A stretch of DNA of 64,000 nt, from NCBI GenBank assembly GCA_017499595.2, contig CM039009.1, forward strand, positions 2,418,001 through 2,482,000, written 5' to 3'. The notes under the pieces are model-generated. The model worked only from the letters and a program-made list of their open reading frames with translations. It made no database searches and was not told the DNA's origin. Of the stretch, positions 1-59,660 are shown one piece after another (position 1 is the first letter of the stretch; the number at the start of each line of letters is the position of its first letter). The stretch is from Psilocybe cubensis (Eukaryota). The position numbers and the translations under genes are program-made.

Positions 1-414
1 AAGATGAGTGTCAAAAACAGAATATGACCTGCAGCAATAAACATGTACCTCGCAACTCTCTACATTATATGCAGAGACAATGTTGTCAGTATCTTTCTGT
101 GAGGATGATTTAGATTTCATTCGGCAATGTGACCGATATTAATTGACTTACTTGAGGAGCCACGAATGCAGTGCTGGCGCTGTAGTGAACCGTGGCTGCA
201 CTGACACCGGATGAGTGAAACTGTAGGACCTCTGTGTTATATGTTAGCTGCGAAGTTGAAATTTACAATGAAACAACTTACTCCAGCAAACGGGGTACAA
301 GTCTGAGTACAGCTTTCCCTCAGCTGGCGGGGTGAACATAAGCATCAAGTCGATCTCCTTTCCGAGGTTGTTTGCCCTGAAGGTGAGCTGTCTGGCATTT
401 CCAGTGATAGGCAT
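1..414 (-). CDS. Family paralog A, 5' part (exons 1-3; gene runs off the left edge)
   Basis: ATG at 414 gives MPITGNARQLTFRANNLGKEIDLMLMFTPPAEGKLYSDLYPVCW|RVLQFHSSGVSAATVHYSASTAFVAPQ|KDTDNIVSAYNVESCE, with GT-AG introns at the same positions and phases as the other paralogs; closest to B. Confidence 0.9.
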
Positions 415-1615
415 TGCGAATGAGGGAGAATTGACGAAAAGAGTCGTTGCAATTTGAGATGGAAATGTCTCCTGGAGCGACTTTCCAATTTATACCATTC
501 AGGCGCTCATGTACGCTTGGTGTAAGATTCCAGATCTGTGTTTGTTCGAGCATCTTTAGTGTAACACAAGACTCTCGGCGATAGAGGAGTGCCGGACCAA
601 CGTCTTTTTAAACGATGTCGATACAATTTGACTTGCCATACGCTCCCCTGGTTTGATATAAAGTAAGCCGATTGATAAACGCCTGCACCTACATGATAGG
701 TGTTCCTTGATCTCGAGGGCTACTTACCGCATGTCGATCAATTTCCCCATAATGATGAAGGAGCACAAACATTACCGGAACCGCGTAGCCACTTAGGCAC
801 CAATGTAATGGTACAGGAACAAACACCAAGTTTATTTTACACTTTCAAAAACTTAAGACCCTTGCACGTAAACATGTCCCATCATTTTGGTATTACTTAA
901 CACAATTGTCACCACCTCGTGTGTAGTACAGGAGTACCGGACCATCAAATCTCCGAGTCTTTACGAGAAATCCGGATTCCATATTGGTGACAGAGAGTGG
1001 GAAAGTCAGTCATGCCCTGACCTGATCGCTCTAATATCCCAGAATGGATACCCCCGTATGGATGTGGGCGTTAAATTCTGCGGGAGAGCAGGTGTGTGTC
1101 CTGGGTTCGAGGCATACTGCGGTCAATGAATAACATCGGAATACATGTGTCTTCAGACAATGTTTCGACGTCCACTACACCATATTTTTATTAATTTTGC
1201 TGCTGTCGTCGTTTATTTTGTGCCTTAATGCTCTTTAGTTCACGTTGCTGTACCAAAATGTCTGCATTATGTGCCTCTTACCCTGGTATCTTCCATGCTC
1301 ACTTCAGTATGAATGGTTTTCGGTTTTGTAATTACGTGCTCACAGATAAACACTGACGCTGCGACGATGAATCGGAGACCCCTAATGTTTACATCATATC
1401 CGCATTAAAAAATAGCATTTCCAATGTTGAGCATGTACCATAAGAATTATGGGAAACGGAGAAGGCATTGGTTTTCGCAATCAGTTCAAATTGCACATTT
1501 TGGAAAACTGGAAAGACTTATGTCTCCATTAAAATTGATGAAAAGCGCTATGAATAGGGTACTAGGAAACTATTTAACGACGAGACATAGGTCAACGTCC
1601 GCCTAATATACGTGA

Positions 1616-2603
1616 CTACTTGGCGCGCACAATCTTCAACTGCAAGCTGCTAGGATCACGGACAACATTCCAGGTAGTTTCGTGAGGGAGTTGAGTAAGG
1701 TCTTGCCTAAACAACTCGTCCGTGTTGACATTTGCTGTCAAGATTTCGCTAGCTGTATCATCCACATATTGTCAGCCAAATCTTGTACGGTGATAGATAT
1801 GAATTAATGCTGTACTTACAATGATAGTCGCTGACCCCATAGATTCTCAATACGGGGGTGAGTTTTACAGCCAGAGTGGAATCGACACTGAAAAACGGGC
1901 ACTGTGAATGAAGACGTTCTGGGGGGTAAAGCCTCAAGTAGTAGCTTACCCAAGTCCGGTCCATTTAAAGATGGGTGCAACCGACTGATCCTTGCCCATG
2001 ATACCCTAATAAAATGTTCAAAACTCATTCTTCAAGTAGTGACATACTCAAGACTTACGAATGCAAGATCCGCTGGCTTTGCAGATTGGATTTTGCACTG
2101 AATGATTCCAGGAGTACCTACTCCTGGATGGGTAAGGTAATTATTTCCCTTGTTGTTGGTCATCAACGAGCAGACTTGGCCACCCTTTATAATAACATTT
2201 AGAGTGTTGTTAGAAAAGCAATATTCCTTCATACCTGGCATCTCTCAACGTTCAGGGCAGAGACTATGTTGGAATCATCGTCTTTCTGATATAGATGTTA
2301 GATTACGTTGAGTAAATAGGATTAAATTTTCCACTTGCCTGCGGAACGATAAACGCGGTGTCTGCAGTATATACCACGACTGCGGTGCTGATGTTAGAAG
2401 CACTGAATTGAAGGACCTCTGCCGAGATCAGGTTAGCATTAAAGCTAGTAAGTAGTGCGGGAACGCTTACTCCAGCAAACGGGGTACAAATCTGTAAAAA
2501 GTGTACCCTCTTTTGGGGGGTCGAACATAAGCATCAAGTCGATATCCTTTCCCAAGTTTTTGGAGACAAAAGTGAGCTTTCTGGCATTTCCTGTGATAGA
2601 CAT
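1616..2603 (-). CDS. Family paralog B, intact 7-exon gene, uncharacterised beta-rich protein
   Basis: MSITGNARKLTFVSKNLGKDIDLMLMFDPP...YPVCW|RVLQF...FIVPQ|KDDDSNIV...CQ|GGQVC...LAF|GIMGK...WTGLG|VDSTLAVKLTPVLRIYGVSDYH|SSEIL...KIVRAK*. Intron 2 (2286-2338) has a GC donor. Confidence 0.92.
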
Positions 2604-3437
2604 TTTGAAAGAGGAATTATATGGATAGTGGAGGTGTTTAGGATGATGTTTGTGGAAATATTCTCCTCAATTTATAGGCGTTCGTGTCGTGCCGCCTTTC
2701 TGCAGCGTGAGAGTCAGTGTCAGCAACTCAGGAGGGCCATCCGAAGGAGTAAACGCCCACACCCATACGGAGATATGTAACATGGCATCACGAATGATCG
2801 AATCAGGGGATCATTCATATTGCGTCGCGGAGTTGAAATGAAACTGCCCTGATCATTTAAGGAGAACATCGGTGATATGAAACGCCGAGTGTACGCCTGT
2901 AGGTGCGTTTGCGCTGTACTTGAGTAGTGGTAAATTGATTGCAGAGTACTAGCCTTGACTCCTGCGTTCGTCGATGGTACATCAGTGTCAATCTAGATCA
3001 TCTGTCTTGAATGATAACTTTGAAAATTCTCCGACGAGGACCACTCAGATTAGTCATGTAACTTATCAACTATGTCAAGTCAACAACTTCAACCTTATGC
3101 GACATATGCGCTTCCGCAAATCCTGGACAATGTTGTGATGCCATTTTGGTGATATTTATTGTTGTAAATGGTGTTGGAAGAACAGATTCGCTTAGTCTCT
3201 GAACGGTGGCAATTTGTGCTTATCATAGCATGGTACAAGTGGGAGGGTCCTCGGAATCCAAATTTGCAGGTACATATTGTTCCTGGAGGAACCTCGGGCG
3301 ATATACAATCTCCGAGGCATCGTCTGCTTACTATTAGAATCCACATGGAGTGTGTTAAAGGTAAAGTATAAAAGAGGAGAACATGACTGTGAAATCAATA
3401 CCCCAACTCTCCAGAGTCATAAATCGCATTTATAAAC

Positions 3438-4414
3438 ATGTCTGGAAACAATCGAAGACTCGAATTCGAATACTCAGACCTCCCAAAGTCATACCAGCTG
3501 ATGCTTATGTTTGAGCCTATGGCAGAAGGCAAAGTATACACCGAGATGTTCCCTACATGTTGGAGTAAGATATCTCTATATTGATATTGAAAATATTGCT
3601 GATGATACTTACAGAGGTTCTCAGGCTGATCAAAGAAGTTTCTGGGGTAGCCAAAGCAATTTATACATCGGATACTGGGTTCATGGTACCACAGGTAGCC
3701 CTATAGATATATTATGGTAAGAATAACGCCTTTCTGACATTTTTGTATAGACCGATTGCGGAAATATCATTTGCGCTGGTACTGCGCGCCCATGTGAGGT
3801 CCGTCTTTCATCAGATTTCTATAACCACCTGAACTAATTGAACTACCCAAGATGGGCCAATTATGTACTGTGATGACCGACAATGATGGAGACAACTACC
3901 TCGAGCAAGCTACAACCGGCGCAAAGGGAATCATCCAGTGCAAAGTCGACAGCTCACTCCCTGCCACCGTTGCATTTGTGTGTCACCGTCACTTTTGAAA
4001 CAGCATTTTATTGTGACTAACACATAATATAGGGAATCTTTAACACAGAAAAGACGGCCTTCGAGCCGTTGTTTACCTGGAGAGACATACCGTAAGCCAG
4101 TCTACACATCAACTTTTATTGATCAATTGCTGACATACTGCAACATGTAGGAAGGGAGACAAACTTTCGATCAAGGTTACCCCAGTTCTCAAGATCTACG
4201 CAGTCAGCAATTACCAAGGTTGGATAATGTATACTCTCGTAAATTAAACACAATTCTGACAACATCCCGCATAGAGACCGAGGTGGTCAGATCCGATGTT
4301 GTCAGCAACCTATTGTTTAGAGAGGACATACTCAATCTTCCCGCTGTATCAAGGTGGACCGTCTCAGTGGACAGTAATACCAAGTCCATTCAGATCGCTC
4401 GGGCCTTACAATGA
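3438..4414 (+). CDS. Family paralog C, intact 7-exon gene
   Basis: MSGNNRRLEFEYSDLPKSYQLMLMFEP...FPTCW|RVLRL...FMVPQ|TDCGNII...CE|MGQLC...VAF|GIFNTEKTAFEPLFTWRDIP|KGDKLSIKVTPVLKIYAV...|ETEVVRSD...IARALQ*; TATA-like GTATAAAA near 3367. Confidence 0.92.
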
Positions 4415-5074
4415 TTGTTTGACATTCCTATTACGTTGGATTATTACTTGTGGTTAAATAATCCCGAACAAATTACTTTTTATACACTATTTTACTCGAG
4501 TCATTTAATCTGCATGACTCTGCGAATTGATGTCTGAAAAGAAAGCTCGGTTCTTTTGTAGACTAATCTGCACCACGGTGGCATTCACAGATTGTCATTA
4601 AATTGACATTCCATATTACACTGACTTCGACATCAATTCAATGATGAAAACTATCGGGACCGATGGATCTAGAGAAATCACCTCCGTCCTATACAATGGA
4701 ACGTCAACTTGATGCATCGGCACAGAGAACGTTCTGGTGAAAAGCTATCTGTCATAATCAATAGCTTCCACGTTTCAAAGGCCATCAGAGATGGCACCAT
4801 TACCCGAAACTTTCGAACTCAGCAGTGTCGCGTTGACGTTGACGTTGAAGTCATCCCGACAGCGGAAGCACGTGTATCTTAGGCATTAGTGTATCTCCGT
4901 GCATACAAAAATTTGATCTGTAAAGGTTCTCCAATGTCAAGATCCCAATCTCGTATGACGGCAGTACAAGTATGCTATAAAACAAGCACATTCATGAAAG
5001 TGTTTTAACATTTTTCAGAACAACACCAATGCCTCTGCGCTCTCATACAAAAACCTGCATATTTTTTTTGAACA

Positions 5075-6082
5075 ATGTCTGCACCTGGCACAGTACGAAA
5101 CACGAAAAAGCTCAACTTCATGAGCAACCAGCTGTCTCGAGACGTGACTTTGGTGTTCATGTTCGCACCCATGTCAAATTTGGGCACGATGTTCTCAGAC
5201 CTTTTCCCAATCTGCTGGAGTAAGCGATGTTATTTTTTCATTGGTTCAAGTAATAACTTTGGTGGCGACTGTACTTAGAGGTCATGAAGTTCAGGAAGGG
5301 GTCGATTGATAAAGGTCTTGCGGTGTACACGGCAGACACAGGTATTGTGTATTTTTCCTTGAATTGTACTCGATGGCGTGCTGATCGATATCGACGAACG
5401 GTTTACACCAGGTTGAAAACGGAAATATTGTGCTTCCCAGCGGTGTTCGTCGCTGTCATGTAATTGCCATCTTCTTTGTATCGAGTAATATTACACTGAA
5501 AATGGACGTGTAGAACGGCCAGCGCTGCGAACTTCTAACTAATGAGGGAGAAAACTACCTCGAGGGGCCTGCAAAAGCTCCTAATCCACACAATATGATA
5601 GAATGTAATGTCAAGACCGCTTTTCCTTCTACACTTGGATTTGTGCGTAAGCTGTGACTGCATTCTGAGTGCGTCTTAGAGTTGACGTGTATGTGGATTG
5701 TAGGGCTTGTTTGACGAGTCTGGGACAAAGATGGAACCGATTTTACATGGAAGGATCTTCCGTACGTCATCCTCTATTGTGATCAGCCGTGATGCGCTAA
5801 CTGGTGCGATATTTTATCAGAAAAAGGCAAATTCTTTCGCTGGCGCTTACACCTCTTATCAGAGTATATGCTGTTACCGACATGACAGGTTTGTTCTTCA
5901 ATATAAATCCCACTTGTACACGTATTCAGATCTTCGTAGTAAACGAAGTGGTCAAAGCTGAAATGGAAAGCCCGGCGCTCCTCGACGCATATCTCGTGGC
6001 GCTTCCTACGACGTCAGGGTGGCTGGTGTATATTGAGGAAAACACGAACGCCGTAAAGATCAAAAGGATTGAAAGCTCTTAG
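5075..6082 (+). pseudogene. Family paralog D, 7 exons with a 1-bp frameshift in exon 5
   Basis: All seven exons are recognisable. Exon 5 reads CCG ATT TTA CAT GG where paralogs need ATT TTT ACA TGG (PIFTW), i.e. one T is missing in the run at 5741-5744. This could be a homopolymer sequencing error. Confidence 0.8.
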
Positions 6083-47311: not shown

Positions 47312-48541
47312 GTTTGCTCCTCCATTCACTTTACTAAAAAAATATTGATTGCTTGACGGTGAACATTGGTAGAAGCACAATGAAGAAAACCCTGAATATG
47401 AGGCCCTATCGGGCGGTGTCCCTTCAGAGCAAAAATATTTGACGTTTCATCCCACCATTCAGTCCGCTCACACCAGAATTAAGTTTTATCGTTACAGCAA
47501 AGACTGCAAAATAGTGATTTTCTAAGGGAGAACCGTGACCCCGAGGCTTTATCGCAAATATAAAGTTCAATAAAACGGTGTTCTTGGGCGCAAGCGAATA
47601 AGCAGGTCTGGGATATCTTGGTATGGATGTTGGATAACACAAGGCTTCCCGCGCTTCTGTTCGGAAGCTGTGCTTATGGACTATGTTATGCTCTATCTAA
47701 CGTTCATGAAATGCAAAGTGCTGCGAGAAAGTTGTAAAGTTGTATTTTTACGCTGCAGATATGGTTTGTAGGTTTAGTCGTAAATTTATCGGCTGAAAAA
47801 ACAAAGTCTTCGTTATCTGAGTAGATTGGTCACATATCGTCAGATTTTAGCACTAAGAATAGAAAAATAGATCAACACTGGGTCAAGAGGTGCGGTGATG
47901 AAGGTCAGCGTGGTAGTTTTAGAGCACAAAAAACTAACAATTACATTGTTTGCCTAACTAAACCCGGTTCGACATGAATTATGCGCTACCATTCTACGCC
48001 CGTCCATCAGCGGGTATGAAAGATAACATATCCTCGCTTTGTACGTCCCTCTCTGACTGGCAGTAGTTTTGTGATGAATTTAACACCAGGAGACTATTAT
48101 AGCATATATCTAATCAATGACAGTGCAGACCACCGAAGAGATTGAAGGAGACAGTATCCCACCAGCAAAACATTCAATATCATCCCTTAGCTATGATATC
48201 TGATGCAAATGTGTAGTGTATATTGTGGCCTTTGAAATGGAGAAAAAAAGCATTAAGTGCACACGAAGGACAAGCTTGAATTTAAAAGAAGGATTCCTGA
48301 TCAAAGAGAAGATGACCCGAAAGCCTATATATCAAGATCAAATCCACAAATATTGATTCAAAGATACACCAGCAAAAGCTACTATGAATCTATGCTCACA
48401 GAGTTGCATGTTCAATCTGTGCACTCGCCGTCGCAAGCGGTGGCCCAAAGTCTAGACCGCATTTGTTTTCCCATCACCCCGGAAGGAAGCAAATCCAAAC
48501 AAATCACGCCACGTGTATGTTTGGTTCCTCGCCCATTTTTT

Positions 48542-51500
48542 GGCCCGATACTGATAGGAGTGATGCGAAAAATAAAAAAGGAAAAAGAAAAAGAAAAGAA
48601 AAAGGGAGAGGAGAAAGGAAGGGATTATTGCTTAGCTTTGCGACAGTTTAGATAACACTGTACCTGTGATGTCCAATAATGATTAGTAGGCTCGCATGGC
48701 TAGTTCGGGGGACCCTTTTTTATACCTTTATGAGCTGGATTGTCGCTTAACTGGTTTGGTTCTCTCTCAAATTAGCATGGCATTGGTTCAGACCCTTTTT
48801 CTTGTATTTTCGGCACAGATACTCGCGTAGATTATATTCGCAGACTAAGCTAAAGTTGGAAAGCACGATTAGATTGCAGGTTACGGTAGTATGTAAGTAT
48901 GCTAGTAGTCCATTAATTCCATCCCTCATAACACTTCTTCGTGGGTCTCTTTGTATTTCTGCCTTTGCAGCTATTGTATTGGCCGCAATCTTGACAGCGG
49001 TTGCGACACAGGTTAACGTTGCTGCTTCCGGAGCAGTCTCTTTGGCCACATTTGCGGCACGTCCGCCGTTTTCGTGGCTTTTTGATTGGCTTTGTTTTCT
49101 GGAGTGATTCAACCACTCGTTGACGCGCAAGCTTCTCCATAATGATTTTGTTCTGTAATTGATGGCTTCTAGGCGAGGTAGGGCACATTTGCTGATGTTC
49201 GAGTTGTTGAGGAGCTGAAATAACATCTGTTTCGCGCCAAAATTCAATGTCCCGGCTTGCCATGTCATCGCGAGAAAGCTGTTGACTTGGTAAATCCGAG
49301 TCAACATGCATGGCATTTGTTGTAATGGGCAACGGTGCCAACATGCGATTTCCATTATCATTGGTTTCTAGCAAGCCTTCGCAAGCAGTGAGAGGTTGTG
49401 GGCACGGTTTGAAAGGTACAACAGGTGCTTTTCGTGAACGTGATGGGTCGTGAATGATGATTGAGAGTGGTCCACGGATATCTGCAGTAAGAGACAGAGT
49501 TTCGTGGATGTGTGAAAGTGTTTTCCATTTATTATAATATGCGCTCAATTGCTCAACAAGCTAAAAAAAATGAATATTTGGACTAAGATGTTACTCACAA
49601 ACAAAAAGACCAAAACAACATACCTTGTAAGAGACATCATTTGTTATGTCAGCCTTTGCATTCCATACTGGAACTGCATCTCGCCATTGTGGCTCTCCAG
49701 ACACCGGACTAAAGGCAGCGTGACTTTTGATCAGATCATGGAAGAGCTTCTTTTCCGTTGCTGTATGAACAGGTAGCACAGGCTTTCGAGTGCCCTGAAT
49801 ATTGGCAAGATACTGATGCATTTGTGGCTGATTAGGAATAACAGTATTTGAATTATATGGAAGCATGCCTGTGGCCGTTCGAATGCTTTCTGGAATAGGC
49901 AGAATCCCAAGAACTTCAGTCGTTGGCGAATAGAGGTTGCCATTGACCCAGCCATCAATTTGGACTGGGTTGATGAGTATATTGTCGAGTGAAATTGTAA
50001 GTTCCTGGAGTTTGTTTATGATCCATATCGAGAAATGACTTCGATATGGTTGGCCAGTAGAGTTGTATGTACCCGTCTAAAGTCATGTTTAGTTAGTAAT
50101 TGTTGAAATTTGATTGAAATAGTAAATTTACTTACCTGGAGATTGTGCCGAAGAACAAAGTCCTTAAGACAAGCCTGCATATGTCGGAAAGACGTGCCAA
50201 ACTTTGGCAAGCGGGACCGTATATGGGTATGAACACCGCCTTCAGTTGTATTTGTACCACGGGCACATCTGTATATGGGAAGGCCTGTTGATTTGTCGGT
50301 CCCAATTCGTGTATACAAAGGAATTCCAGGAGGATCAGATAAATATCCTCCTATAGCAAGTTCAAGAATACATTTGGCAGTTTTCCAGCCTTCCACTGAA
50401 AACAGGGGCTTTTTGGTTTTGGGATCCCTCAAGGGACCATATGTGCGAAAGACTTTGGCAAGATATTCATAGACAATATGTGGTGATGGAATATGGTGCT
50501 TGCATCGTTGACGTACCCATTCTGAGCGTGAATTTCGTAGCTGCTCATATGTTTGAGGTGGAGACCACGTTGCACCAATTGCGTCAATACGATCCTTGTC
50601 ATCTTTATCAGGAATAAAGATTGCATCGCGCAGATCACGAGTAAACTGCTTTCGGAGCCCATGAGTGGCGGGAATGTAGAACATGTGGAAAACATGCCAC
50701 ACGTCCTTGATGACACGACTGTGCAGTGTATAATCCCACTGATCTGGATCTTTTCCCAAGTACTCCTTGCAGAATAACACACTTTCAGGATCAACCTCAA
50801 AGCCTTGCACAGAATCAGTAGAACATCCTTCAGAGAGGTCATCAGATAAGAGATCCCCAACCGAGCAAGAAGGCTCTGAATCATTGGGTGCAGCAAAGTC
50901 ACATTCGGAATCAGCATCCTGAAAAATGCTTGCAGATTCATAGGGGGTTTCGGTTTCAGGCTCGGAGCTGGCAGATTCACAAAATTTGATTGTCCTTGTT
51001 GATGAGGCGGCAGGATCATAAAGTCGAAGATGGCTCTGTAAGCAGACTATCGAAAACGGTGTTTGGCCAAACGATTTCAGAGTTTGCCGACGATGCTGTG
51101 GAATAATCGCACCCGGAACAAGAACTTTGAGAACATCAATAACTGTTCTCCGTGCAGAAACTTTGATTCCATCATATGTTTGGCTTCGGGCGTGACGTGA
51201 TATTTGACCTTCTGCAATGATTGTAGTGTTATCGTTGCTGAAGAGAATGACCGGCATGCAAGGTTCCACCAATGATGGGAGTAGAGATGGCACTTTGATG
51301 TTTTGCATTTCTTTGTAGAGGCAGAGCGAAGCGTATGCATCTTTTGCAGCATAGCTTAACTGCTCGGGGGACAAAACAATATTCTCCCACAAGTTACTGA
51401 TTCGTTCTGGTACATTTTTGTCGAGACGTTTATGCAAAATCCGTGCACACAGATCTGCCAGACTTGTTTTTGAAATATTTGATATTAAAAGGCGATCTTT

Positions 51501-54256
51501 GGCAAGTTTTCCAAGATCAACTCCCCCGACAAAGTCATACGACGAGTTAGAGGCTTTTTGGAGATAAGAGAGGTCAGATTTGATCATCCGACCCACTTTC
51601 AAAATTCGTGGATGAGCGAGTAACAGCTTTAGTTGATGTGGCAGGTCCCCCTTTGCAAGCATTTCACTAATCTAATTTGTAAAAGCAGGTCAGGTCACTA
51701 TACTATAATATTCATCAACAAAAACCCACCTGAAGCACATATATGCAATCCTGATAAGCAATTTGTATAATCGCTGTCTTGCCACGATGGGTCACGTGAC
51801 CACGAGACGAAAGCTCTACATTCCATTCAGAATCAAAACCAACAGCAATATATCCCTGATCCTGGGGAACATCATCGAGAATAGATCGTGCAGCATCATT
51901 GATTGAGTGTGGTGAATCCTTGGGAAGAAGCTTGACCTGCGGAGGAAGTTCAAAGGGCTCCAAATCTGCATACTTTTCAACTGGCACTACACCGGCTCGA
52001 AGAGAAGGGAAGCACCGCTCCAAGAATGCCTTATCGGTGATATTATCGGTGAAGAAAAGTTGAGGCTGGGAGTGACCGTAAAGATCAAGAGACTTTGCCA
52101 TGGCTTTCAAAGGCAATTCAGATTGTGATTGCGCTTTGGTTGCAACAAGATTGCACGTCCTTATTTCGCCTTTTTCATTGGTTACCGTAAGAAGGCCAGT
52201 GAAAACCTGTTCACCTTCGACACGGGCTAAGTGTTTTGTAATCTATATTGCTTCCAATTAGCAATTAATCAGAGAATTGAAGAAAATATACTGACTTTGT
52301 GGCTATGGTCAATAGCACATATCTCACCCGTCAACATCGCCGTGTGCTGGTTGAAATCGTGGCCGTGCTTTTCAATAAACGAGTCATACATATCTCGAAT
52401 CCATTGGGCACTAGGAATATATCCATGACGTCCTCTTGGGCTTGTGTCATTGAAGGGCAGAAAGGATTCAAATTTTCTGTTATTCCAGGTGCCATCCAAT
52501 GTGTTTCTTCGTTCGCAAAGGTGTGTCAGATACTGCAGATTGAGCAGGTCATGTCGAAGCAGATGCTGTGTACGCAAACCGTCGGAAAATTGCTTTGTTC
52601 CCATACCATTCTGAATACAGGTTCTCAACCAATTAAACGCTGTCTTGGATATGGCACTACGATAACTTATTCTTGCTGGAAACTCAGCAGCCAGTGATGA
52701 AGGAAGCATTTTAAGGATCTCGGGATCCCAACTTCGAAATGTGACTGTACGTGTTCCAGGTTTTGAATAAATACATGTGGGGCAACGGTAACGATATCCG
52801 ATAATATAGAATGTTGAGTCCATATCAACACATCGACGAGGACGTGGAATTTCAGAATGCCGTTGCAAGCGTCTTCCGCACTTGGGGCAAGAGATACCGT
52901 CGTTGCAAAGAGGAAGGGGATCCCAGAGCATAAATCGAGAGTCATAGCAATCGGGAGGTGATGGGTGCGACGAGTTTCGAAGAATGAAATAAACCGATTT
53001 TGTCGGAAACCAAAATGTGTGTTGATTGGCATATAATGGAGGCAGACCATTTGCGTCGCGTTGCCGCGACTCTTTGAGATGTTGTCGAAATTGCTCCATC
53101 AGCCACTCGGGTAACGGCTTTACCATGGGAGCTCCAGAAGACAAAGGTGAAGGGCAATCTTCATCGTCATCCAAATCATCTTCGACACCAACACCATCTC
53201 CAGATGCATCGTCATCATCCAGCGGCACAATTTCGCGCTGTGGATCTTCACTACCAATAATTGTATCATGTGGAGGCGTTGTGTGGGTAGATGGTGGCGG
53301 ACGTGTGGTGCAGGGATTGGATGCAACCAACTGGCCGCTGTGCAGTTGAGGCGGTACACTGGGTCTGGGACTATGATTTGAACTGCGGGATGGTGGAACA
53401 AAGGAATAAGGTGGGGCAAGCAAAGCTGGAGGTGTTATCCTGCTAGTACCAGGATTTGTCTAGAAAATAATGAGAAGAAAGATATCACAAAACAAAAAAC
53501 CACGCACCGATGTCCTGAATTCGATCGACACTGCAGGAGATGCCAACTTCTGTTTTTTTGGCCTTCCTCGTGGACGTTTTGCAGGCGGCGCTACTCCCTC
53601 TAACGCTAGTGCAGCCGCTCGCTTTTGTTTGTACCCGGATCCAGGAGGTCGACCGCGTCGTGGACGTGGGGAATCGACGGCAACGGTGTGCGCACACGTT
53701 GCAAGAGGGGCCGTCACCGACGACGAAGGTGTCCCAAGAGCTGCATTTGGGGCATCGGCAAGATTATCTGTGTGGGAAGTGACAACCGTGAGTGTGAGTA
53801 CCCTAGAAAGCAGATTCTGATGAACTAGTTCGCATACCATTGATAGTGATGTTGTGCAAGTTTCTCGTATAGGTAGGCCTCCCAGCCAAGTTCCTAGCAC
53901 TGCCAGTGCACTTTAGTCACGGTTCAAACAAGCAAACAAGGCCTTCTGGCTCACCTTGCGTCAGCATTGCCTCCGAGCCTCAAAGGTGCCCCAAACTGGC
54001 TCTGCATTCCATTCTGTGCAGCCGGAATGTGATCTTGTTCGCGTTCGTTGTTCACAGGAAATAATTCCGTGTTCATAAATAAACGAAGCCGGTTATCGAA
54101 GGCAGTACAAAGAGATTTATAGCTGGAGTTGTCGTTCTCGTTGGGTTCTCGAGAACGGATGCACGGGGATGACTTCATAATTACATAATATTTTCCGTGA
54201 TTTTTTTCAAACTCAGAATCCGTATCCGTATCCGTCACCGCTATCAGTATCGAGCC
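48542..54256 (-). mobile_element. Apparently autonomous DNA transposon, 5715 bp, short TIRs, 8-bp TSD
   Basis: TIRs GGCCCGATACTGATAG / CTATCAGTATCGAGCC (1 mismatch in 16); TSD CATTTTTT (48534-48541, 54257-54264); encloses one large spliced gene. Confidence 0.85.
48913..54076 (-). CDS. Putative DDE transposase (~1,600 aa, 8 exons): AT-hooks, DUF6729-like Zn region, embedded DEDDy 3'-5' exonuclease, C-terminal Cys cluster
   Basis: Splicing joins the ORFs in frame: RRGRPP and RPRGRPKK hooks; FWFP..WDPL..CPKC..RRCVD..YRYRC; AIDHSHK|ITK; LFFTDN; ExoI VGFDSEW, ExoII KSDLSYL, ExoIII YAAKDA; KDVWH; RCARGTNTTEGGVH; CRKC..C..C..CQDC..C. The two 5' exons are less certain. Confidence 0.8.
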
Positions 54257-56150
54257 CATTTTTTTGTCCTTTGATTCAGGTTTTTCACTTCGTCCATCCT
54301 GTACGCATATACTCACCACCCATCGACTTTTCTAGCGAGCATATACACACTCTCAAAGGATCTTATACCACCTCTTGAATCAAAAATACCTTTAATTTAA
54401 CGCGATGTCACAGAAATGAGTACGGAGGAAAGCGCAAAGCGGATGAGGATGGTATTGGAGACGGCCGAGCTCGCGGGGTGGACGTGCTGCACACATAACA
54501 GTTGAACTGGAAAGTGTATGCGCTGCGCGACTGCGTCTCAGACTCAGGGGACCCGGAGGATCTTCCATTGTTAAAGGTGTGTATTGATCACCCATAACAC
54601 CCATCTTGCCTTCGTGACAACAGCTTCATTTTTCAGCGAGTCCAAGGTCTGTCTCTCGCTTAGAATTTCACATTTTCTGCCTGCAACCCGTATTTGCCAT
54701 TCCCTCGAGAGAAGTGGCGATGCCGGCGTTGGGTTATAGACTCTTTCGAACGCTTTCTATGTCGATTATATTGTGACCATTCGGGTTTGGATCGCATTAG
54801 AGTGGCATTGGAGGTTGCAATTAGAAGGGGAGGACATGGTAGGTGATGGTGTTCAACAACGTTGACAGCACGTCCGCTCGTGGGCGTCAGTACGCAAGGT
54901 TTTGATGTTGATGAGTCCGTCGGCGGGAATAGTGACACTTAGGTGCGTCCAGTTACTGCTTCCAACTGTTTCAATACCCGATGCAGCACCCGCATTTACA
55001 TTTCCGACACCCTCGCGTGTTTCTGTGCTTGTGGTTCATATGCTCCCCGCACGATGAAATAGCTTTTCGAGCCCCTAACATAACCCCAATCCTGATAACC
55101 CATCGCGCCGTCGTATCTTAGCCAACGCTCGCGAGAAGGCAAAATTGTACACTGTATGGGGTAATTGATGTCACCGGCTCGATATCAAGTGTCCCAGGCG
55201 TTCGATTTCGTTCTGTGCTTCGAACTGCTACAATGTGCACAATGCATCGCCAACCATATCGAGTGGCTGGCTTGGGTCATTGCTTTGCGCACCTTCCTTT
55301 AAGTGAGACGACGCGTCTACTATGCGTGGATCTCATATTTTACCACCTTATACCGCCTCTCCGCTCTGTATACCTCGCCAGCTTCTTGATAATCCTCCCG
55401 TTACTCCCCTCACTCAATCAATCTCCGCCTGTTATCATGCTTGTCCCAGGGTTCCAATACGTTTGTTCCAAAATACCTTTCATCCTGCATCTCCCTGTTG
55501 ATTACGTCGCGTGTCTCGCTTAGTCGAATTTGGGTTTGACTGCTAGACCGCATATACGCCCCAGCCTTTGTGCGTCGTGCGTTGTGTACTACACGGATCA
55601 GGCATTCCCAGGTATAGTGGATAATCATATGGTTTATATCTGCGGTTATACTCGACTCTCACTACATGTCCCTTCCTTCATGCCTCTTCGGCTCCGATGT
55701 ATGCTAATATGACATCCCCTTGAACACATTGGCGGGGCCATGGGCAGCTGCACCAGTTCCCCATCCCGCATATCCATTTCCCTCTTTGCCGTTTTTCTGT
55801 ACCTTCCCGGATGATCTAGGTGGTAATGGCAATAGCGGCTCATTGTCAGAGATACCCCTTCATTCCCCCCATTCACAGTCAATGCGCTTGAAGATCTCGA
55901 TCAACAATTTACTTTGCCATGAGTGGTACATCAACTCGATCCTATAGGGATTCAGCGGAAGTTAATATTCAAGAGAGCAAATCGGCTCATGTAAATCGTG
56001 ATGCTATTGGGTATCATCAATGAGATGTTCATTAATGCAATTGAAACTTAAACCAATATCGTTAAATTGCGTTCTAGTTATTTACGGATACATAGAATAA
56101 AGAAAACATGTTATATTATCGTCTTGTTTACCTGCGAATTAAAGGGTATC

Positions 56151-59100
56151 CTATAATGAGTGATGATTACAGGTGATGTTAAGTTTGCTTAGCATTGAAA
56201 TCGTGGAAGGAAATGTCAGATATTTGTCCACATATCGGCGTGCTCGTTTAGCGATTTCGGGTTGCTCACGGCTGACAATGAGTTCCAGTTCCTTGAATTT
56301 GGCATTGAGAGAGATCCCTTCCTCGTGTTTCCCCAGAGCGCAGTTGAATGTGCTCTCCAGATAGAGTGCACGTGCAAGCGACGGGAATGAGCTGCGTCTC
56401 TTTGCCGTCCTTGCCTCATAGTATACCCGCACCTTTTGGATTGCTTCCAACGCGTCTGAAACAAGGCCCTTGGAAGCTTTGTGCATAGCATGGACTTCCA
56501 AGGCATTGATATACCTTGGTTGATGATATGCCTCTTCTGAGTCTTCGAGAGATTGAATCGACTTTAATAGTCTTTCTGAAGTTTGAGCCGCCTCGATATC
56601 ATTACCCACGTCGCCGAGAACATGAGATAGAAAGAGATAAATATCGCCTCTTTCAGAATTTCCGCATCCGTCTCCACATGAGAGTGATAATTGCAGGGCT
56701 TCTGATATATAACCTAGTGCAGCATCGTAGTCACCCGTGTTTCTGGATGCCAAAGCACAATGCTGAAGACAGGATATGTACTCGTGATGGTGCTCTTCAA
56801 AGTGCATGCGAGCAAAAGTCTCGTATTTCTTGCTCGCTATGGAGGCTTCCGCGTATCGACCGAGATCACCGAGGATAACAACTCGTTGGTTCATGGCCAT
56901 TATGAGCTCTTCATATATGTCATCGTTTGTTGGATGACAGCTTCCGATTTCAATGGCCTTGTCAAGAGCGTCCAATGGCGTCGGGATATCTTTACGTCCT
57001 GGAGCACTCATCACATGGAGCACATTGGAATACGAAGTGAGGGTTTTGATGTAACATACAACCTCATCTGGGGCCTCAGCTGGATGACGATTGAACCAAG
57101 AAAGACCATGCTGAATGGATGTTAATGCATCCTCTAAGCGATCCAACGACATAAGGACCTTTGTATGATGGTTGATGCTGTCGATGTACACCATAGAGTA
57201 TTTGTCTGGGTACTGCTCCGCCAACCTCTGAGCGTGTTCCAGACAGGTCTGGGTCCGTTCTAGGCGAATGCTTTGTTCCAGATCAACGACCACTGTCAGT
57301 TTGAAGTTCAATGTCAAGCAATCGACGTAGTGAGAAGCCTGAGTTGGCTTGGATTTCATAGTTACTGAAAAGAACCTGAGCGCTTCTCCCCCGTATTGGA
57401 ATGCTTTGGCGTATTCCTTGTTATGGAATTGGATGTGAACAAGTCGGTTGAGAACCACTCCGACAGTGATTGGGGTGTGATATACATTCTCGTCCGTGGT
57501 GGAAACCAACATACGGAGTTGCAGGAGGCACTCTTGAAGCTCTCTACTTGCCTCGGGGTACATTCCAGCTTGGAAATAATTCATTCCATTGTCGAAATAC
57601 TGCTCTGCCACCAGGCCAGAAGGTCCTCTCGACGTGTCTCGGAGGAGTGATGCTAGCTGAGTCCCATATGTTGCAGCTTCTTCATATCTTGCGAGGCTGC
57701 TCAACGTCGTGACCAGTGAGAAAAGTGCCTCCGAGCGAAACACATGATCCTCAAAGGTATCTGCATAAGCTAGAGTAGATATCTCTTTCCAGTCGGATAT
57801 GGCGGCGTCGTATTGTTTGAGATTTTTCAAGAATTGCGCCTCTATCTTGAGGGCAGTACACAGTTCGCCCCGAAAATCCCTGTCTTCGCTTTGCTTATGA
57901 AATACCCTGAGTTCTTTCACACAGTTCTGTGCATACTCTAGATATTTATACTCGTCCAGGAGATTGAGAGACATGACTTCGTCGCTGCAAAGTTGAGAGA
58001 GAAAGACGGAGATTTGATGTGTGCCGTTGCATTGATCGCATAGCGTATGCTGGCTTCCCTGGAGTAGCATGTCCAGGGCCTTGACAGCAGTCTTGAATAC
58101 CCGCTCGAATTGGTGGGTGCTCCAGAAAAACATACTTGAATGGATCATAGCATGGACGTAGCGACATAAAGCACCGTCTTCACGAGAACGCAGGCTGAGC
58201 GCCGTTGTTTCCGTAATTGGGGAGGAAACGTTACCTTCGGACACATCCTGGTCCTTGGTAACGATGTTCTCGTAGACAGTAATGGTATCGTTGGCAAAGT
58301 TCGATGATGCCTCGAGTTTATCCTTTGCAAGCATGATGCAGGACAGTTGTAGAAGCAATGTCCCAAGCAATGCATTCACTTCCGCGTCGTTAGATGGGTC
58401 ACCAGTCAGTAACTTCCTACCGATGAATATGGCGTCATTGATGGTATCTTCTGCGTTGCTGAGATTATCACTCCCAGAATAGAGGTAAATCTCGGATAGA
58501 AGTCGTAAACTCGCTGGAAGGTAGCGGTGGTATATGGTTGAATCTGTTTCCGCCCACGCTCTACACAAATTGACTGCCCAGACTGCAATAGTGATGGCCT
58601 GTGAGTAAAGTCCGAGTCGACATAACCCATAGCAGAGATTGGCGATATTCTGAGAGCTAGACTGGAATGATGCAGGTTTACGATGTCCAGACAAGCTTGC
58701 CTGCACATCAAGTGCTAATGCAATAACTTGTCTCTCGATAAGTTTCCTGTCAAACATGTTGCAAAACACCGTGTTAGAGGTTGGTGGTAGATGTAATAGC
58801 TGTGATGGCGGGAATGCATCGAGTGAAAATGACAATCCTTGGCCAGAGAACATTTGGTTCAAATATGTATTGATGTTGTTGAGTTGATCGAGAAGGAAAA
58901 CATAGGAGATATCATCTGGGCTGAGCGTATGAGACTGTGTAGATATCTGAGTTGACACTGTTATCTCCGAGCCTATGTTGTCGGCCGTGGTAGTCAGCTC
59001 AGTGCTAACTACTGAGGTATCGACAACGTCGCTGATGTTTAATTTGCGAGCTACTGCCTCAACCATTCTCTCGGTTCTCGCAAGAGAAGAAGTCTGTTTG

Positions 59101-59660
59101 TATCAAAAGTCGTAAGGGGCATCAGCACAAACAGCTCTCTCAAACTGAATACGAAAATACCTGAAAGACGTCATGATAGCTTTCCATCTCATGTCGAATC
59201 TGGTTCAGTCGTCGGTTCAACTCTTTGCCACGCATCCAAGTCCGAATCCTGTTCCGAATCCTCTCAAACCTATTCGACGAATCTTCAGAGGGTACCAGCT
59301 CAAGACAGTTGATACGCGAAGCATCTAGGTTTCTTAGAGTTTTTGCGTCAGTGAGACTGCCGAATCTGGAAGTAACCATTGCATTACTCTATCAAATGAA
59401 ACAGTGTAGCACCTTGGGCTACTTCTTCGCTGGGCAGAACCGCTTTCATTTCATTTACTGAGTCTTCAATTAATTTCGCGAGCCTCTCTAAGTCTTCACG
59501 ATTTCCCCTAGCCTGTGCGTTAATATAACAATAAGAAATGAGCTGTGAAGTGATAATGTGCAGATGATAGAAGACACACAGCAACGTATGATTGATGTAG
59601 AGCCATAATCTCCTTGAAGGAAGTTGACAGCACACCGTAGCCGATGCTGACTGGGTCCAT
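56151..59660 (-). CDS. MLKL-like/four-helix N-terminal domain plus long TPR-like solenoid protein (~1,100 aa, 4 exons)
   Basis: MDPVSIGYGVLSTSFKEIMALHQSYVA|ARGNREDLERLAKLIEDS...LIE|NLDASRINC...RIRTWMRGKELNRRLNQIRHEMESYHDVFQ|TSSLARTERMVEAV... joins the 971-aa ORF with TPR-like repeats (LGLYSQA, LARYEEA, LDRLEDA, LGRYAEA, LGKHEEG). No Walker A motif seen. Confidence 0.85.

What the first reader, a model, noticed from the sequence alone, without database searches (positions are those of the whole stretch)
48542..54256. Intact-looking transposon whose transposase has a complete DEDDy 3'-5' exonuclease inserted in its catalytic core
Seen: TIRs, an 8-bp TSD and one spliced open gene. Candidate catalytic residues D (AIDHSHK), D (FFTDN), DxxH (DVWH) and E (NTTEGG) flank a domain with all three Exo motifs (DSE, D, YAAKD). 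Established: C/DxxH after the second Asp marks the hAT/Mutator/P/Kolobok group of DDE transposases, and DEDDy motifs define WRN/RNase D-type exonucleases. Inference: a poorly classified cut-and-paste family that may process DNA ends, or RNA, with its own exonuclease, and this copy may still be active.
Basis: partly seen in the sequence, partly recalled or inferred. Interest (0 to 1): 0.75.

Follow-up and report, generated by a model that had tools for sequence, protein, structure and literature searches.

The report
Active Dada transposon with built-in exonuclease
This is a 5.7-kb jumping gene of the mushroom Psilocybe cubensis that has moved recently and whose cut-and-paste enzyme carries a DNA-trimming exonuclease inside its catalytic core; that layout was published in 2013 for the Dada transposon superfamily, so this is a new member and not a new kind.

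Summary
Window 48542-54256 is a 5,715-bp DNA transposon with 16-22-bp terminal inverted repeats (TIRs) and an 8-bp target-site duplication (TSD), CATTTTTT. Two other strains and part of a third carry the exact empty site. One minus-strand gene of 8 exons encodes 1,585 aa and equals a public Psilocybe cubensis protein. Two of its 7 introns are confirmed by spliced contigs.

The protein reads: AT-hook-like motifs, CxxC..CxxC zinc finger (Pfam DUF6729), D532, D602, a complete WRN-like DEDDy exonuclease, D1030xxH, E1184, Cys-rich tail. An AlphaFold model of a 57%-identical homologue matches WRN exonuclease (Z 26.8) and the IS256-family transposase ISCth4 (Z 12.8).

The claim of an unclassified family fails. 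[quoted passage not shown]

Three things were not found in print. This lineage has TIRs starting 5'-GGC. It has exact 8-bp TSDs in the window copy plus six metagenome copies. None of those copies lies in a small-RNA gene. Published Dada have 6-7-bp TSDs, no TIRs and small-RNA-gene targets.

Verdict: new, recently active member of a known kind; modest interest.

The parts
48534..48541 (.). Left copy of the 8-bp target-site duplication, CATTTTTT
   Evidence: The empty allele in runs X10, X7 and X14 keeps a single copy.
48542..54256 (-). Whole element, 5,715 bp: an autonomous Dada-type DNA transposon with its gene on the minus strand
   Evidence: TIRs, TSD and the exact empty site, which skips 5,723 nt = 5,715 + 8.
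48542..48563 (+). Left terminal inverted repeat: 16 nt with 1 mismatch, 22 nt at 86%
54235..54256 (-). Right terminal inverted repeat
   Evidence: Loose ends of two other copies in run X7 leave the element at 54256 and 54257.
54257..54264 (.). Right copy of the TSD, CATTTTTT
53955..54076 (-). Exon 1 of the public gene model (start codon at 54076-54074)
   Evidence: the 8-exon model equals P0001. No RNA contig covers this exon.
53838..53899 (-). Exon 2 of the public model
   Evidence: Not covered by RNA contigs. An alternative start at ATG 53840 would give 1,548 aa.
53508..53767 (-). Exon 3, with two AT-hook-like GRP motifs (53669-53547)
   Evidence: The downstream intron 53507-53460 is spliced out in an X9 contig. 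Pfam AT_hook scores only E 0.12. The GRP motifs appear in the family consensus.
52296..53459 (-). Exon 4: DUF6729 region with the CxxC..CxxC zinc finger (52889-52773) and the first catalytic Asp, D532 in AIDHSHK (52316-52296)
   Evidence: Pfam DUF6729, E 1.3e-14. The four Cys are kept in 63, 64, 66 and 49 of 72 sequences and D532 in 70 of 72.
51730..52242 (-). Exon 5: second catalytic Asp, D602 in FFTDN (52056-52042), and the start of the exonuclease with Exo I DSEW (51834-51823)
   Evidence: D602 in 71 of 72, D673 in 70 of 72, E675 in 72 of 72. Intron 51729-51672 is spliced out in an X9 contig.
51290..51966 (-). DEDDy (WRN/RNase D-type) 3'-5' exonuclease domain, P0001 residues about 629-835, interrupted by intron 51729-51672
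   Evidence: Pfam DNA_pol_A_exo1, E 1e-11. Family profile against PDB: WRN exonuclease, E 7.7e-28. Model against 2e6l: Z 26.8, rmsd 1.9, 185 aligned. Coordinates.
50136..51671 (-). Exon 6. In order: Exo II D740 (51575-51573); Exo III YAAKD (51353-51339); a beta-rich domain of unassigned fold (51254-51023); an acidic low-confidence linker (51011-50828); the DxxH motif DVWH (50705-50694); the catalytic Glu E1184 in TTEGG (50249-50235)
   Evidence: Secondary structure of the model.
49624..50076 (-). Exon 7: conserved C-terminal region of unknown role (family consensus GWVNGNLY, QGTRKPVLP)
48913..49560 (-). Exon 8 with the stop codon: a basic patch and a Cys-rich zinc-binding-type tail (49059-48931)
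   Evidence: the CxxC...CxxC...C pattern is kept in most of the 42 sequences that reach this far. No conserved His.

Best explanation
The element is an autonomous, recently mobile DNA transposon of the Dada superfamily. It belongs to the exonuclease-bearing lineage first reported from Laccaria bicolor and Ectocarpus.

Its single protein binds the 5'-GGC... terminal inverted repeats through N-terminal AT-hook-like motifs and a zinc-finger/DUF6729 module. It cuts and joins DNA with an RNase H-fold DDE site (D532, D602, E1184, helped by D1030xxH). That site resembles those of IS256/Mutator-type transposases. Insertion goes through an 8-bp staggered cut in AT-rich, non-genic DNA.

A complete WRN-like DEDDy 3'-5' exonuclease is spliced into the catalytic domain. 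It sits after the helices that follow the strand bearing the second Asp, and before the short strand that immediately precedes DxxH.

Shown here: the anatomy, the mobility, the expression and the conservation.

Inferred: the exonuclease works on the 3' DNA ends made in the transpososome, as Kojima & Jurka proposed. I put that at about 55%. Whether movement is cut-and-paste or copy-out/paste-in is also open.
For: Mobility.
- Exact empty site in X10, X7 and part of X14.
- In X14 my arithmetic on the depth table gives about 28 over the element against about 53 over the flanks. Flank SNPs (48180 T>G, 54485 T>C) and small flank insertions co-occur with the empty allele in X10 and X7 and are partial in X14.
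- Other P. cubensis genes are 98.8-99.7% identical, on contigs of 2.56 and 4.19 Mb.

Gene. The 8-exon model equals P0001, and 2 of 7 introns are seen spliced in X9.

Family. 93 long homologues were found; every one that carries a species name comes from an Agaricales genus, often several per genome. All catalytic residues are kept in 63-72 of 72 sequences. They are also among the >=90% columns when a 23-27%-identical environmental clade is added.

Fold.
- The AlphaFold2 model of homologue P0005 has pLDDT 80.3 and pTM 0.74.
- D323 lies in strand 319-325. D393 lies just after strand 389-392. D786xxH789 lies just after strand 783-785. E893 lies in helix 889-903.
- Among 48,161 PDB representatives, the only non-exonuclease among the 50 rows shown is 6xg8_A, the ISCth4 transposase: Z 12.8, rmsd 3.2, 262 aligned, model range 166-937.
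- ISCth4 has D175, D241, E348 and C262xxH265 and makes 8-bp TSDs (PMC7780238, passages). The D1-D2 spacing is 66 there and 70 here.

Literature. PMC3706591 reports the same layout: N-terminal CCCC finger, D, D, DEDDy exonuclease, DxxH, E, C-terminal finger. Laccaria proteins are among the homologues (P0003, 57% over exon 6; also P0090, P0093).

Lineage ends. Six metagenome copies in four families have TIRs starting GGC and exact 8-bp TSDs. In two pairs, 99.7% and 99.3% identical, homology stops at those ends, within 1 nt at one end of one pair.
Against: - No Repbase Dada sequence or Dataset S1 could be compared, because supplements are closed. The link to Dada rests on the published description and on Laccaria homologues, not on an alignment to a named Dada consensus.
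- Searches did not reach named animal Dada proteins.
- The TSD is 8 bp, not the published 6-7 bp. TIRs are present where Dada-U6 and Dada-U1 have none. No small-RNA gene lies at any of the 7 insertion sites.
- The C-terminal finger has no conserved His, although the paper calls it CCHC.
- No Pfam transposase family matches at E <= 10.
- The transposase fold rests on one structural match to a predicted model of a homologue.
- DnaQ-type exonucleases are themselves generally classed as RNase H-like (my own knowledge), so part of that match could in principle come from the inserted domain. However, 262 aligned residues over model 166-937 exceed the exonuclease's roughly 200.
- What the exonuclease does is untested.
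Confidence: 0.85

Rival explanations
1. The element belongs to, or is better filed with, the Mutator/IS256 (or hAT) superfamily rather than Dada. The exonuclease-bearing fungal lineage would then be separate from the small-RNA-gene-targeting Dada of animals and Perkinsus.
For: - The best non-exonuclease structural match is the IS256-family transposase ISCth4. ISCth4 also makes 8-bp TSDs and has TIRs.
- Atlas leads for the DxxH-to-E part are Mutator-like and Transposase_mut clusters, at scores of only 0.76-0.85.
- The 8-bp TSD, the TIRs and the lack of target specificity all differ from published Dada.
Against: - No MULE, Transposase_mut or hAT Pfam match at E <= 10.
- The N-terminal zinc finger and the position of the exonuclease between D2 and DxxH match what PMC3706591 describes for Laccaria Dada, a genus that supplies homologues here.
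- The paper itself reports distant similarity of Dada to MuDR, hAT, P, Kolobok and IS256, so the structural match is expected for Dada too.
Confidence: 0.1
2. The built-in exonuclease acts on RNA rather than on transposon DNA ends. It could, for example, trim or destroy small RNAs that guide silencing of the element, in the manner of Mut-7/Nibbler-type enzymes.
For: Structural and sequence neighbours after WRN include RNase D, Nibbler/Mut-7, EXD1 and RRP6, with Z 17-19. Other copies in run X7 show heavy C>T and G>A decay, so the host does attack this family.
Against: - The closest match by far is the DNA exonuclease of WRN: Z 26.8, 30% identity, E 7.7e-28.
- The domain is inserted within the transposase catalytic domain, not appended, and is kept with it across the whole family. 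That argues for a role coupled to DNA chemistry.
- No data here bear on substrates.
Confidence: 0.12
3. It is a host gene, a Werner-syndrome-like exonuclease as public annotation names it, that merely sits between chance repeats.
For: Public names for the near-identical proteins are 'Werner Syndrome-like exonuclease' and '3'-5' exonuclease'.
Against: - Presence/absence polymorphism falls exactly at the TIR/TSD boundaries.
- Near-identical copies lie on other contigs.
- Many paralogues per genome across Agaricales.
- TIR/TSD-bounded relatives occur in metagenomes.
- A conserved DDE/DxxH core surrounds the exonuclease.
Confidence: 0.01

Closest known systems
Dada-1_LB and Dada-2_LB (Laccaria bicolor) and Dada-1_ES (Ectocarpus), Dada superfamily, Kojima & Jurka 2013 (PMC3706591)
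   Same: - DDE transposase with DxxH after the second Asp.
- A DEDDy DnaQ-like 3'-5' exonuclease between the second D and DxxH.
- N-terminal four-Cys finger and a C-terminal finger.
- Introns.
- Similar size: Dada-2_LB's representative is 5,652 bp by its Table 1 coordinates, against 5,715 bp here.
- An Agaricales host, and Laccaria proteins are homologues (49-57% over exon 6 and the whole protein).
   Different: The paper says that all Dada with clearly definable termini lay in small-RNA genes, and the passages I read give no termini, TSD or target for the Laccaria elements. Here the termini are defined: TIRs starting GGC, an 8-bp TSD, and a target that is not an RNA gene. No direct sequence comparison with the Repbase entries was possible.
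Dada-U6, Dada-U1 and Dada-tRNA families of fish, Daphnia, oyster and Perkinsus (PMC3706591; PMC8869645, passages only)
   Same: Same superfamily architecture minus the exonuclease. The D1-D2 spacing is 68 aa in Dada-U6_DR (D567, D635) and 70 aa here. The zinc finger lies about 140-155 aa before D1. Atlas clusters named for Pfam DUF6729, commonest phylum Chordata, are the nearest clusters to exon 4 (score 0.97).
   Different: Those elements have no exonuclease, no TIRs (only short subterminal inverted repeats) and 6-7-bp TSDs. They insert strictly into U6, U1 or tRNA genes. The paper noted apparent 8-bp duplications for Dada-U1 and Dada-tIA_PMar but preferred 6 bp.
IS256-family transposase ISCth4 (PDB 6xg8; PMC7780238) and eukaryotic Mutator-like elements
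   Same: RNase H-like DDE core with a C/DxxH motif at the start of a helical insertion domain, TIRs and 8-bp TSDs. It is the only non-exonuclease among the 50 rows shown: Z 12.8, 262 aligned residues.
   Different: 9% identity and no sequence-level match. It has no exonuclease and no DUF6729 finger. ISCth4 moves by copy-out/paste-in in bacteria.
WRN exonuclease domain (PDB 2e6l, 2fbt)
   Same: Complete DEDDy motif set. Z 26.8, rmsd 1.9 over 185 of 186 residues, 30% identity. Profile E 7.7e-28.
   Different: In WRN the domain is an N-terminal module of a RecQ helicase (my own knowledge). Here it interrupts a transposase catalytic domain, and no helicase was detected.
Other transposase-exonuclease pairings noted earlier in this scan (e1-636679/81, P-type with DEDDh in Naegleria; e1-3231129/30, IS256-like with DnaQ in Actinomycetota)
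   Same: A C/DxxH-clade transposase joined to a DnaQ-fold 3'-5' exonuclease; an 8-bp TSD in the actinobacterial case. These are unchecked notes.
   Different: Those use DEDDh, not DEDDy. The exonuclease is fused at an end or encoded by a neighbouring gene, not inserted in the core. The hosts differ. I did not test those notes.

Membership tests
Dada superfamily (Kojima & Jurka 2013) | DDE triad with a DxxH motif after the second Asp | tested here: met
   D532, D602, D1030xxH1033 and E1184 are kept in 63-72 of 72 homologues. Their positions in the strands and helix of the model fit an RNase H-like core. ISCth4 match, Z 12.8.
Dada superfamily (Kojima & Jurka 2013) | N-terminal CCCC zinc finger upstream of the first Asp | tested here: met
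   C339, C342, C374 and C377 (CPKC..CPTC) are kept in 63, 64, 66 and 49 of 72. The finger lies 155 aa before D1, against 135 aa in Dada-U6_DR.
Dada superfamily (Kojima & Jurka 2013) | C-terminal CCHC zinc finger | tested here: inconclusive
   A conserved Cys-rich C-terminal motif exists, but no His is conserved in it. The register against Dada-U6_DR could not be checked because Dataset S1 is closed.
Dada superfamily, exonuclease-bearing lineage (Dada-1_LB, Dada-2_LB, Dada-1_ES) | [quoted passage not shown] | tested here: met
   D673, E675, D740, Y814 and D818 lie between D602 and D1030. Pfam PF01612. WRN exonuclease, Z 26.8.
Dada superfamily (Kojima & Jurka 2013) | Significant sequence similarity to named Dada transposases in Repbase | not testable with these tools
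   Repbase and the paper's Dataset S1 are not available. Indirect evidence only: Laccaria bicolor homologues P0003, P0090 and P0093. The contig lengths of P0093 (3.57 Mb) and P0003 (2.02 Mb) are long enough to hold the published Dada-1_LB and Dada-2_LB coordinates. That is an inference.
Dada superfamily (Kojima & Jurka 2013) | 6-7-bp target-site duplication | tested here: not met
   8 bp at this copy, with the empty site (8-11 allowed by slack). Exact 8 bp at six metagenome copies, with homology-defined ends in two pairs. The paper treats TSD length as diagnostic but gave no termini for the Laccaria elements in the passages I read.
Dada superfamily (Kojima & Jurka 2013) | Insertion into a specific small-RNA gene (U6, U1, tRNA); no TIRs | tested here: not met
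   No Rfam family at the gathering score in the window or in 7 loci. Only chance-level hits in the flanks. No tRNA. TIRs of 16-24 nt are present. In the paper this feature was shown only for members with definable ends, not for the fungal ones.
Mutator-like elements / IS256 family | Match to the MULE (PF10551), Mutator (PF20700) or Transposase_mut (PF00872) profiles | tested here: not met
   No such Pfam match at E <= 10 on any exon. There is only structural similarity to ISCth4 and weak Atlas leads.
DEDDy (WRN/RNase D-type) 3'-5' exonucleases | Exo I (DxE), Exo II (D) and Exo III (Yx3D) motifs in a DnaQ-like fold | tested here: met

The most novel reading that the evidence does not exclude
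The exonuclease may be an obligatory step of the transposition chemistry and not an accessory. After the DDE site nicks the transferred strand, the built-in 3'-5' exonuclease would remove or resect the other strand or the flanking 3' end. Double-strand release would then be achieved without a hairpin or a second hydrolysis.

DnaQ-fold exonucleases appear to have been recruited repeatedly by C/DxxH-type transposases: Dada in fungi and brown algae, and, by unchecked earlier notes of this scan, a P-type element in Naegleria and IS256-like elements in Actinomycetota. That recurrence would then mark a distinct transposition pathway.

This polymorphic, expressed P. cubensis copy, with its defined TIRs and 8-bp TSD, would be a ready system to test the idea.
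Probability: 0.15. Interest if true: 0.7.

Novelty: new member of a known kind. Interest (0 to 1): 0.3.

Why it matters
The headline feature, a DEDDy exonuclease inside a DDE transposase core, has been in print since 2013, so the finding does not open a new class.

The follow-up adds four things.
- It gives, to my knowledge from the searches, the first clearly delimited ends for the exonuclease-bearing Dada lineage: TIRs starting 5'-GGC and an 8-bp TSD.
- It shows that this lineage does not target small-RNA genes. Target specificity is therefore not a trait of the whole superfamily.
- It shows that a copy in a cultivable mushroom has inserted recently (strain polymorphism) and is expressed. 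That gives a natural system for asking what a built-in exonuclease does in transposition.
- It shows that public annotation calls these transposase genes "Werner syndrome-like exonuclease/helicase". That label misleads comparative genomics of DNA-repair genes in Agaricales.

Tried and rejected
- No whole genome is held for this window, so copies and empty sites were sought through public runs and metagenome contigs instead.
- A local MAFFT run of 93 proteins timed out. The alignment tool was used instead.
- Pfam at E <= 10 gave no transposase family on any exon.
- The family profile against PDB sequences gave significant hits only to exonucleases, with a few unrelated weak rows above E 0.01.
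- Foldseek on PDB and the second-look aligner listed only exonuclease-fold entries in the rows shown. The transposase match came only from the wide search.
- Protein searches with exon 4 (157 hits, 120 listed, fungal or unnamed) and with the divergent P0092 (13 unnamed hits) did not reach named animal, algal or Perkinsus Dada. The link to them is therefore not shown by alignment.
- The look-up of sequencing runs listed no RNA holder. X9 is only guessed to be RNA. I rely on its two intron-less contigs.
- A relaxed TIR+TSD scan of 40 of the 79 metagenome loci was no better than offset controls: 7 hits against 3-6.
- A stricter scan gave 9 hits at offset 0, against 0-7 at offsets 1-12.
- I therefore accept only copies whose ends are set by homology between two copies (L024/L051, L042/L061), or that have TIRs matching at 21 or 22 of 24 positions and starting GGC (L025, L036).
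- L008 is rejected: a palindromic 16-mer and redundant contig ends. L054 and L070 are left undecided. The outer pair in L051 is read as a different, host element.
- The remaining loci showed no accepted ends. Many of those contigs stop inside or close to the element.
- A replicate fold on the divergent clade was dropped. Its only members under 1,200 aa (P0222, P0224) appear to end soon after the exonuclease: P0222 has no residue at the DxxH and E columns.
- Figure S1 and Dataset S1 of PMC3706591 could not be seen.
- KDZ/Zisupton was considered because of weak CxC-cluster Atlas scores of 0.84-0.86. It was dropped for lack of any profile or structural support.

Full report
WHAT IS THERE

Window 48542-54256 is bounded by GGCCCGATACTGATAG and the reverse complement of GGCTCGATACTGATAG. 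These are the only two matches to that 16-mer in the window, allowing up to 3 mismatches. Extended to 22 nt at 86%, they are the top inverted repeat of the region. CATTTTTT lies directly outside both ends. No whole genome is held for the window, so other evidence of mobility was sought in public runs.

MOBILITY

Four runs were laid on 48042-54756.
- A 16,435-nt contig of X10, a 6,981-nt contig of X7 and 15 raw reads of X14 join 48530 to 54254. They skip 5,723 nt, which is the 5,715-nt element plus one TSD copy.
- The joint has 11 nt of slack because GCC precedes both TSD copies. This site alone therefore allows a TSD of 8 to 11 nt.
- In X14 the element's depth is about half that of the flanks: about 28 against about 53, by my arithmetic on table 2.
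- Flank variants (48180 T>G, 54485 T>C, small insertions at 48242 and 48276) are fixed in the empty-allele contigs and partial in X14. The empty allele is therefore a separate haplotype, with no footprint. I read it as the pre-insertion state.
- Two X7 loose ends leave the element at 54256 and 54257 into other flanks, so other copies share the right terminus.
- In public protein sets, genes 98.8-99.7% identical to this one lie on contigs of 2.56 and 4.19 Mb of another P. cubensis assembly, and a second gene (P0002) exists.

THE GENE

Six long minus-strand frames join through GT..AG introns of 48-63 nt into a 1,548-aa protein. A database search with exon 6 found P0001, named "3'-5' exonuclease" of Psilocybe cubensis, 1,585 aa, 100% identical. 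P0001 adds two 5' exons. The 8-exon model translates exactly to it, with 7 GT..AG introns: 54076-53955, 53899-53838, 53767-53508, 53459-52296, 52242-51730, 51671-50136, 50076-49624, 49560-48913.

Run X9, which is only guessed to be RNA, holds contigs in which introns 53507-53460 and 51729-51672 are precisely removed. None of the three DNA runs shows these joints. Two other X9 contigs stop at 52296 and 53768, at or within 1 nt of exon borders. The 5' exons and the remaining five introns are not confirmed.

DOMAINS

Pfam finds DUF6729 (E 1.3e-14) in exon 4 and DNA_pol_A_exo1 (E 1e-11) in exon 6. It finds no transposase family even at E <= 10. No paper in the searched library mentions DUF6729.

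An alignment of 72 homologues (A1) keeps these residues:
- D532: 70 of 72
- D602: 71
- D673: 70
- E675: 72
- D740: 70
- Y814: 70
- D818: 70
- D1030: 71
- H1033: 71
- E1184: 63, with the other 9 sequences gapped
- Finger cysteines C339, C342, C374, C377: 63, 64, 66, 49

Adding a clade of 13 unnamed environmental proteins, 23-27% identical to the Agaricales family, leaves all these columns at 90% or more.

The C-terminal tail has a basic patch and a conserved Cys-rich pattern without a conserved His.

FOLD

The window's protein is spliced and too long for the structure tool. I therefore folded homologue P0005 (Gymnopilus, 1,083 aa, 57% identical to P0001) with A1 as its alignment. The model has mean pLDDT 80.3 and pTM 0.74.

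In the model:
- D323 lies in strand 319-325.
- Two further strands and a long helix follow.
- D393 ends strand 389-392.
- Two short helices follow.
- Next comes the exonuclease (about 420-620), a beta-rich domain (632-709) and a low-confidence acidic linker (713-746).
- Strand 783-785 is followed at once by D786xxH789.
- A mainly helical stretch follows, and E893 lies in helix 889-903.

The exonuclease part matches mouse WRN exonuclease at Z 26.8, rmsd 1.9, 185 of 186 residues, 30% identity. The profile gives E 7.7e-28.

Among 48,161 PDB representatives, the only non-exonuclease among the 50 rows shown is the IS256-family transposase ISCth4 (6xg8_A). The match is Z 12.8, rmsd 3.2, 262 residues aligned, model range 166-937 and chain range 79-391. 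ISCth4 has D175, D241 and E348, a C262xxH265 motif at the start of a helical insertion domain, TIRs and 8-bp TSDs (PMC7780238, passages). Its D1-D2 spacing is 66, against 70 here.

Caveats:
- This is one match, to a predicted model of a homologue.
- I had no coordinates, so D-D-E distances were not measured.
- DnaQ folds are themselves generally classed as RNase H-like (my own knowledge), although the aligned length exceeds that of the exonuclease.
- Atlas leads for the DxxH-to-E part (Mutator, Transposase_mut; scores 0.76-0.85) point the same way but are weak.

WHAT IS KNOWN

A literature search led to Kojima & Jurka 2013, PLoS One, PMC3706591. I read passages and the whole of section 5. The paper:
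- defines the Dada superfamily;
- finds a DDE triad and a DxxH motif shared with hAT, Kolobok, P, MuDR and IS256;
- reports an N-terminal CCCC and a C-terminal CCHC finger in all members;
- proposes that this exonuclease processes cleaved 3' ends.

That is the architecture flagged here, and Laccaria proteins are among the homologues.

Muszewska et al. 2017 (PMC5751038, passages) count 1,023 Dada copies with a domain, across four fungal phyla. They do not mention the exonuclease. Kojima's 2022 fish study (PMC8869645, passages) mentions neither an exonuclease nor inverted repeats, and speaks of putative 6-bp TSDs.

I could not align to Repbase sequences or to Dataset S1, because supplements are closed.

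WHAT DIFFERS FROM PUBLISHED DADA

Here the window shows no Rfam family at the gathering score and no tRNA. The two flanks give only chance-level hits. The insertion lies in non-coding DNA, about 1.9 kb from a 983-aa open reading frame.

To see whether this is general, I fetched 79 metagenome loci encoding relatives and examined the 40 that had some flank. Simple TIR+TSD scans were not clearly above offset controls. I therefore rely on two kinds of evidence.
- Homology between independent copies. L024 and L051 are 99.7% identical over exactly 5,643 nt. L042 and L061 are 99.3% identical over about 5,762-5,813 nt. In both pairs the flanks are unrelated. The homology ends coincide, within 1 nt at one end of the second pair, with TIRs flanked by exact 8-bp repeats: AAATCTTT, GGAATTCC, CTATTATA and CCGAGAAC.
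- Long TIRs. L025 (5,708 nt, TSD CTAATTTC) has GGCTCGATACTGATG ends almost identical to the window's. L036 (5,442 nt, TSD AGAATAAT) has GGCSCGWTACTCATGG.

All five families start 5'-GGC. None of these seven loci holds an Rfam or tRNA gene.

L008 was rejected, and L054 and L070 were left open. Searches for such a description of fungal Dada ends found none. Repbase records may hold it.

HOW IT LIKELY WORKS

Shown:
- a single protein with DNA-binding motifs;
- a conserved DDE/DxxH core of IS256/Mutator-like fold;
- an intact WRN-like exonuclease inserted between the helices that follow the second Asp's strand and the short strand before DxxH;
- 8-bp staggered integration into mostly AT-rich sites (5 of 7 TSDs have at least 6 A/T);
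- recent insertion;
- transcription.

Inferred:
- The N-terminal module reads the GGC... ends.
- The AT-hook-like motifs favour AT-rich targets.
- The exonuclease trims 3' DNA ends within the transpososome (about 55%). An RNA-directed, anti-silencing role is less likely (about 12%).
- Whether movement is cut-and-paste or copy-out/paste-in is open.

VERDICT

It is a new member of the published exonuclease-bearing Dada lineage. Newly defined here are its TIRs, its 8-bp TSD and its non-targeted insertion.

Noticed in passing
window 48542-54256, as seen in run X7: Other copies of the element in that strain differ from this one mainly by C>T (83) and G>A (85), out of 206 listed changes. This is a RIP-like or 5-methylcytosine-deamination pattern of decay.
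   Followed up: no
window 54263 (loose ends): Six X14 reads follow the element's right end through CATTTTT and then diverge into GAGGCTCTTTGAG... This could be a third allele, or a second insertion at a look-alike target. Unexplained.
   Followed up: no
window 52746-53865 against 51600-52745, in run X9: Contig depth is about 360 over the 5' part of the transcript but only 5-11 further downstream, and zero beyond 51600. Possible causes are a truncated or prematurely ended transcript, or reads from another copy.
   Followed up: no
Public proteins P0226, P0227, P0004, P0229, P0230: Public annotation names these transposase genes 'Werner Syndrome-like exonuclease' or 'Werner syndrome ATP-dependent helicase-like protein'. 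A second Dada subfamily (P0004 cluster, 47% identical) has three genes on one 3.05-Mb P. cubensis contig.
   Followed up: partly
L051 175-6225: The 5,643-nt Dada copy (357-5999) sits inside another short element with CAGTGTTGG inverted ends and its own 8-bp duplication, GCATATAC. This is a nested insertion.
   Followed up: partly
L008 1-6085: The contig ends repeat a palindromic 16-mer (GATAGCAGCTGCTATC) plus TCAATTAG on both sides. This looks like terminal redundancy of the assembly, or a circular or tandem form, rather than a TSD.
   Followed up: partly
Proteins P0092 and P0214-P0225: A clade of 13 unnamed environmental proteins, 23-27% identical to the Agaricales family (P0092 itself 26% by BLAST), carries both the DUF6729 and exonuclease Pfam domains. 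Across the combined alignment the catalytic columns stay at 90% or more. The organisms are unknown.
   Followed up: partly
Proteins P0061 and P0087: Some public gene models fuse this transposase to a protein kinase domain (Mycena kentingensis) or to a Tf2-type retrotransposon polyprotein (Lyophyllum shimeji). These are probably nested insertions or merged gene calls.
   Followed up: no
window 56151-59102, minus strand: A 983-aa uninterrupted reading frame lies 1.9 kb to the right of the element. It was not analysed.
   Followed up: no
P0005 model residues 632-709, corresponding to window 51254-51023: A conserved beta-rich domain lies directly after the exonuclease, followed by an acidic disordered linker. 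No fold was assigned.
   Followed up: no
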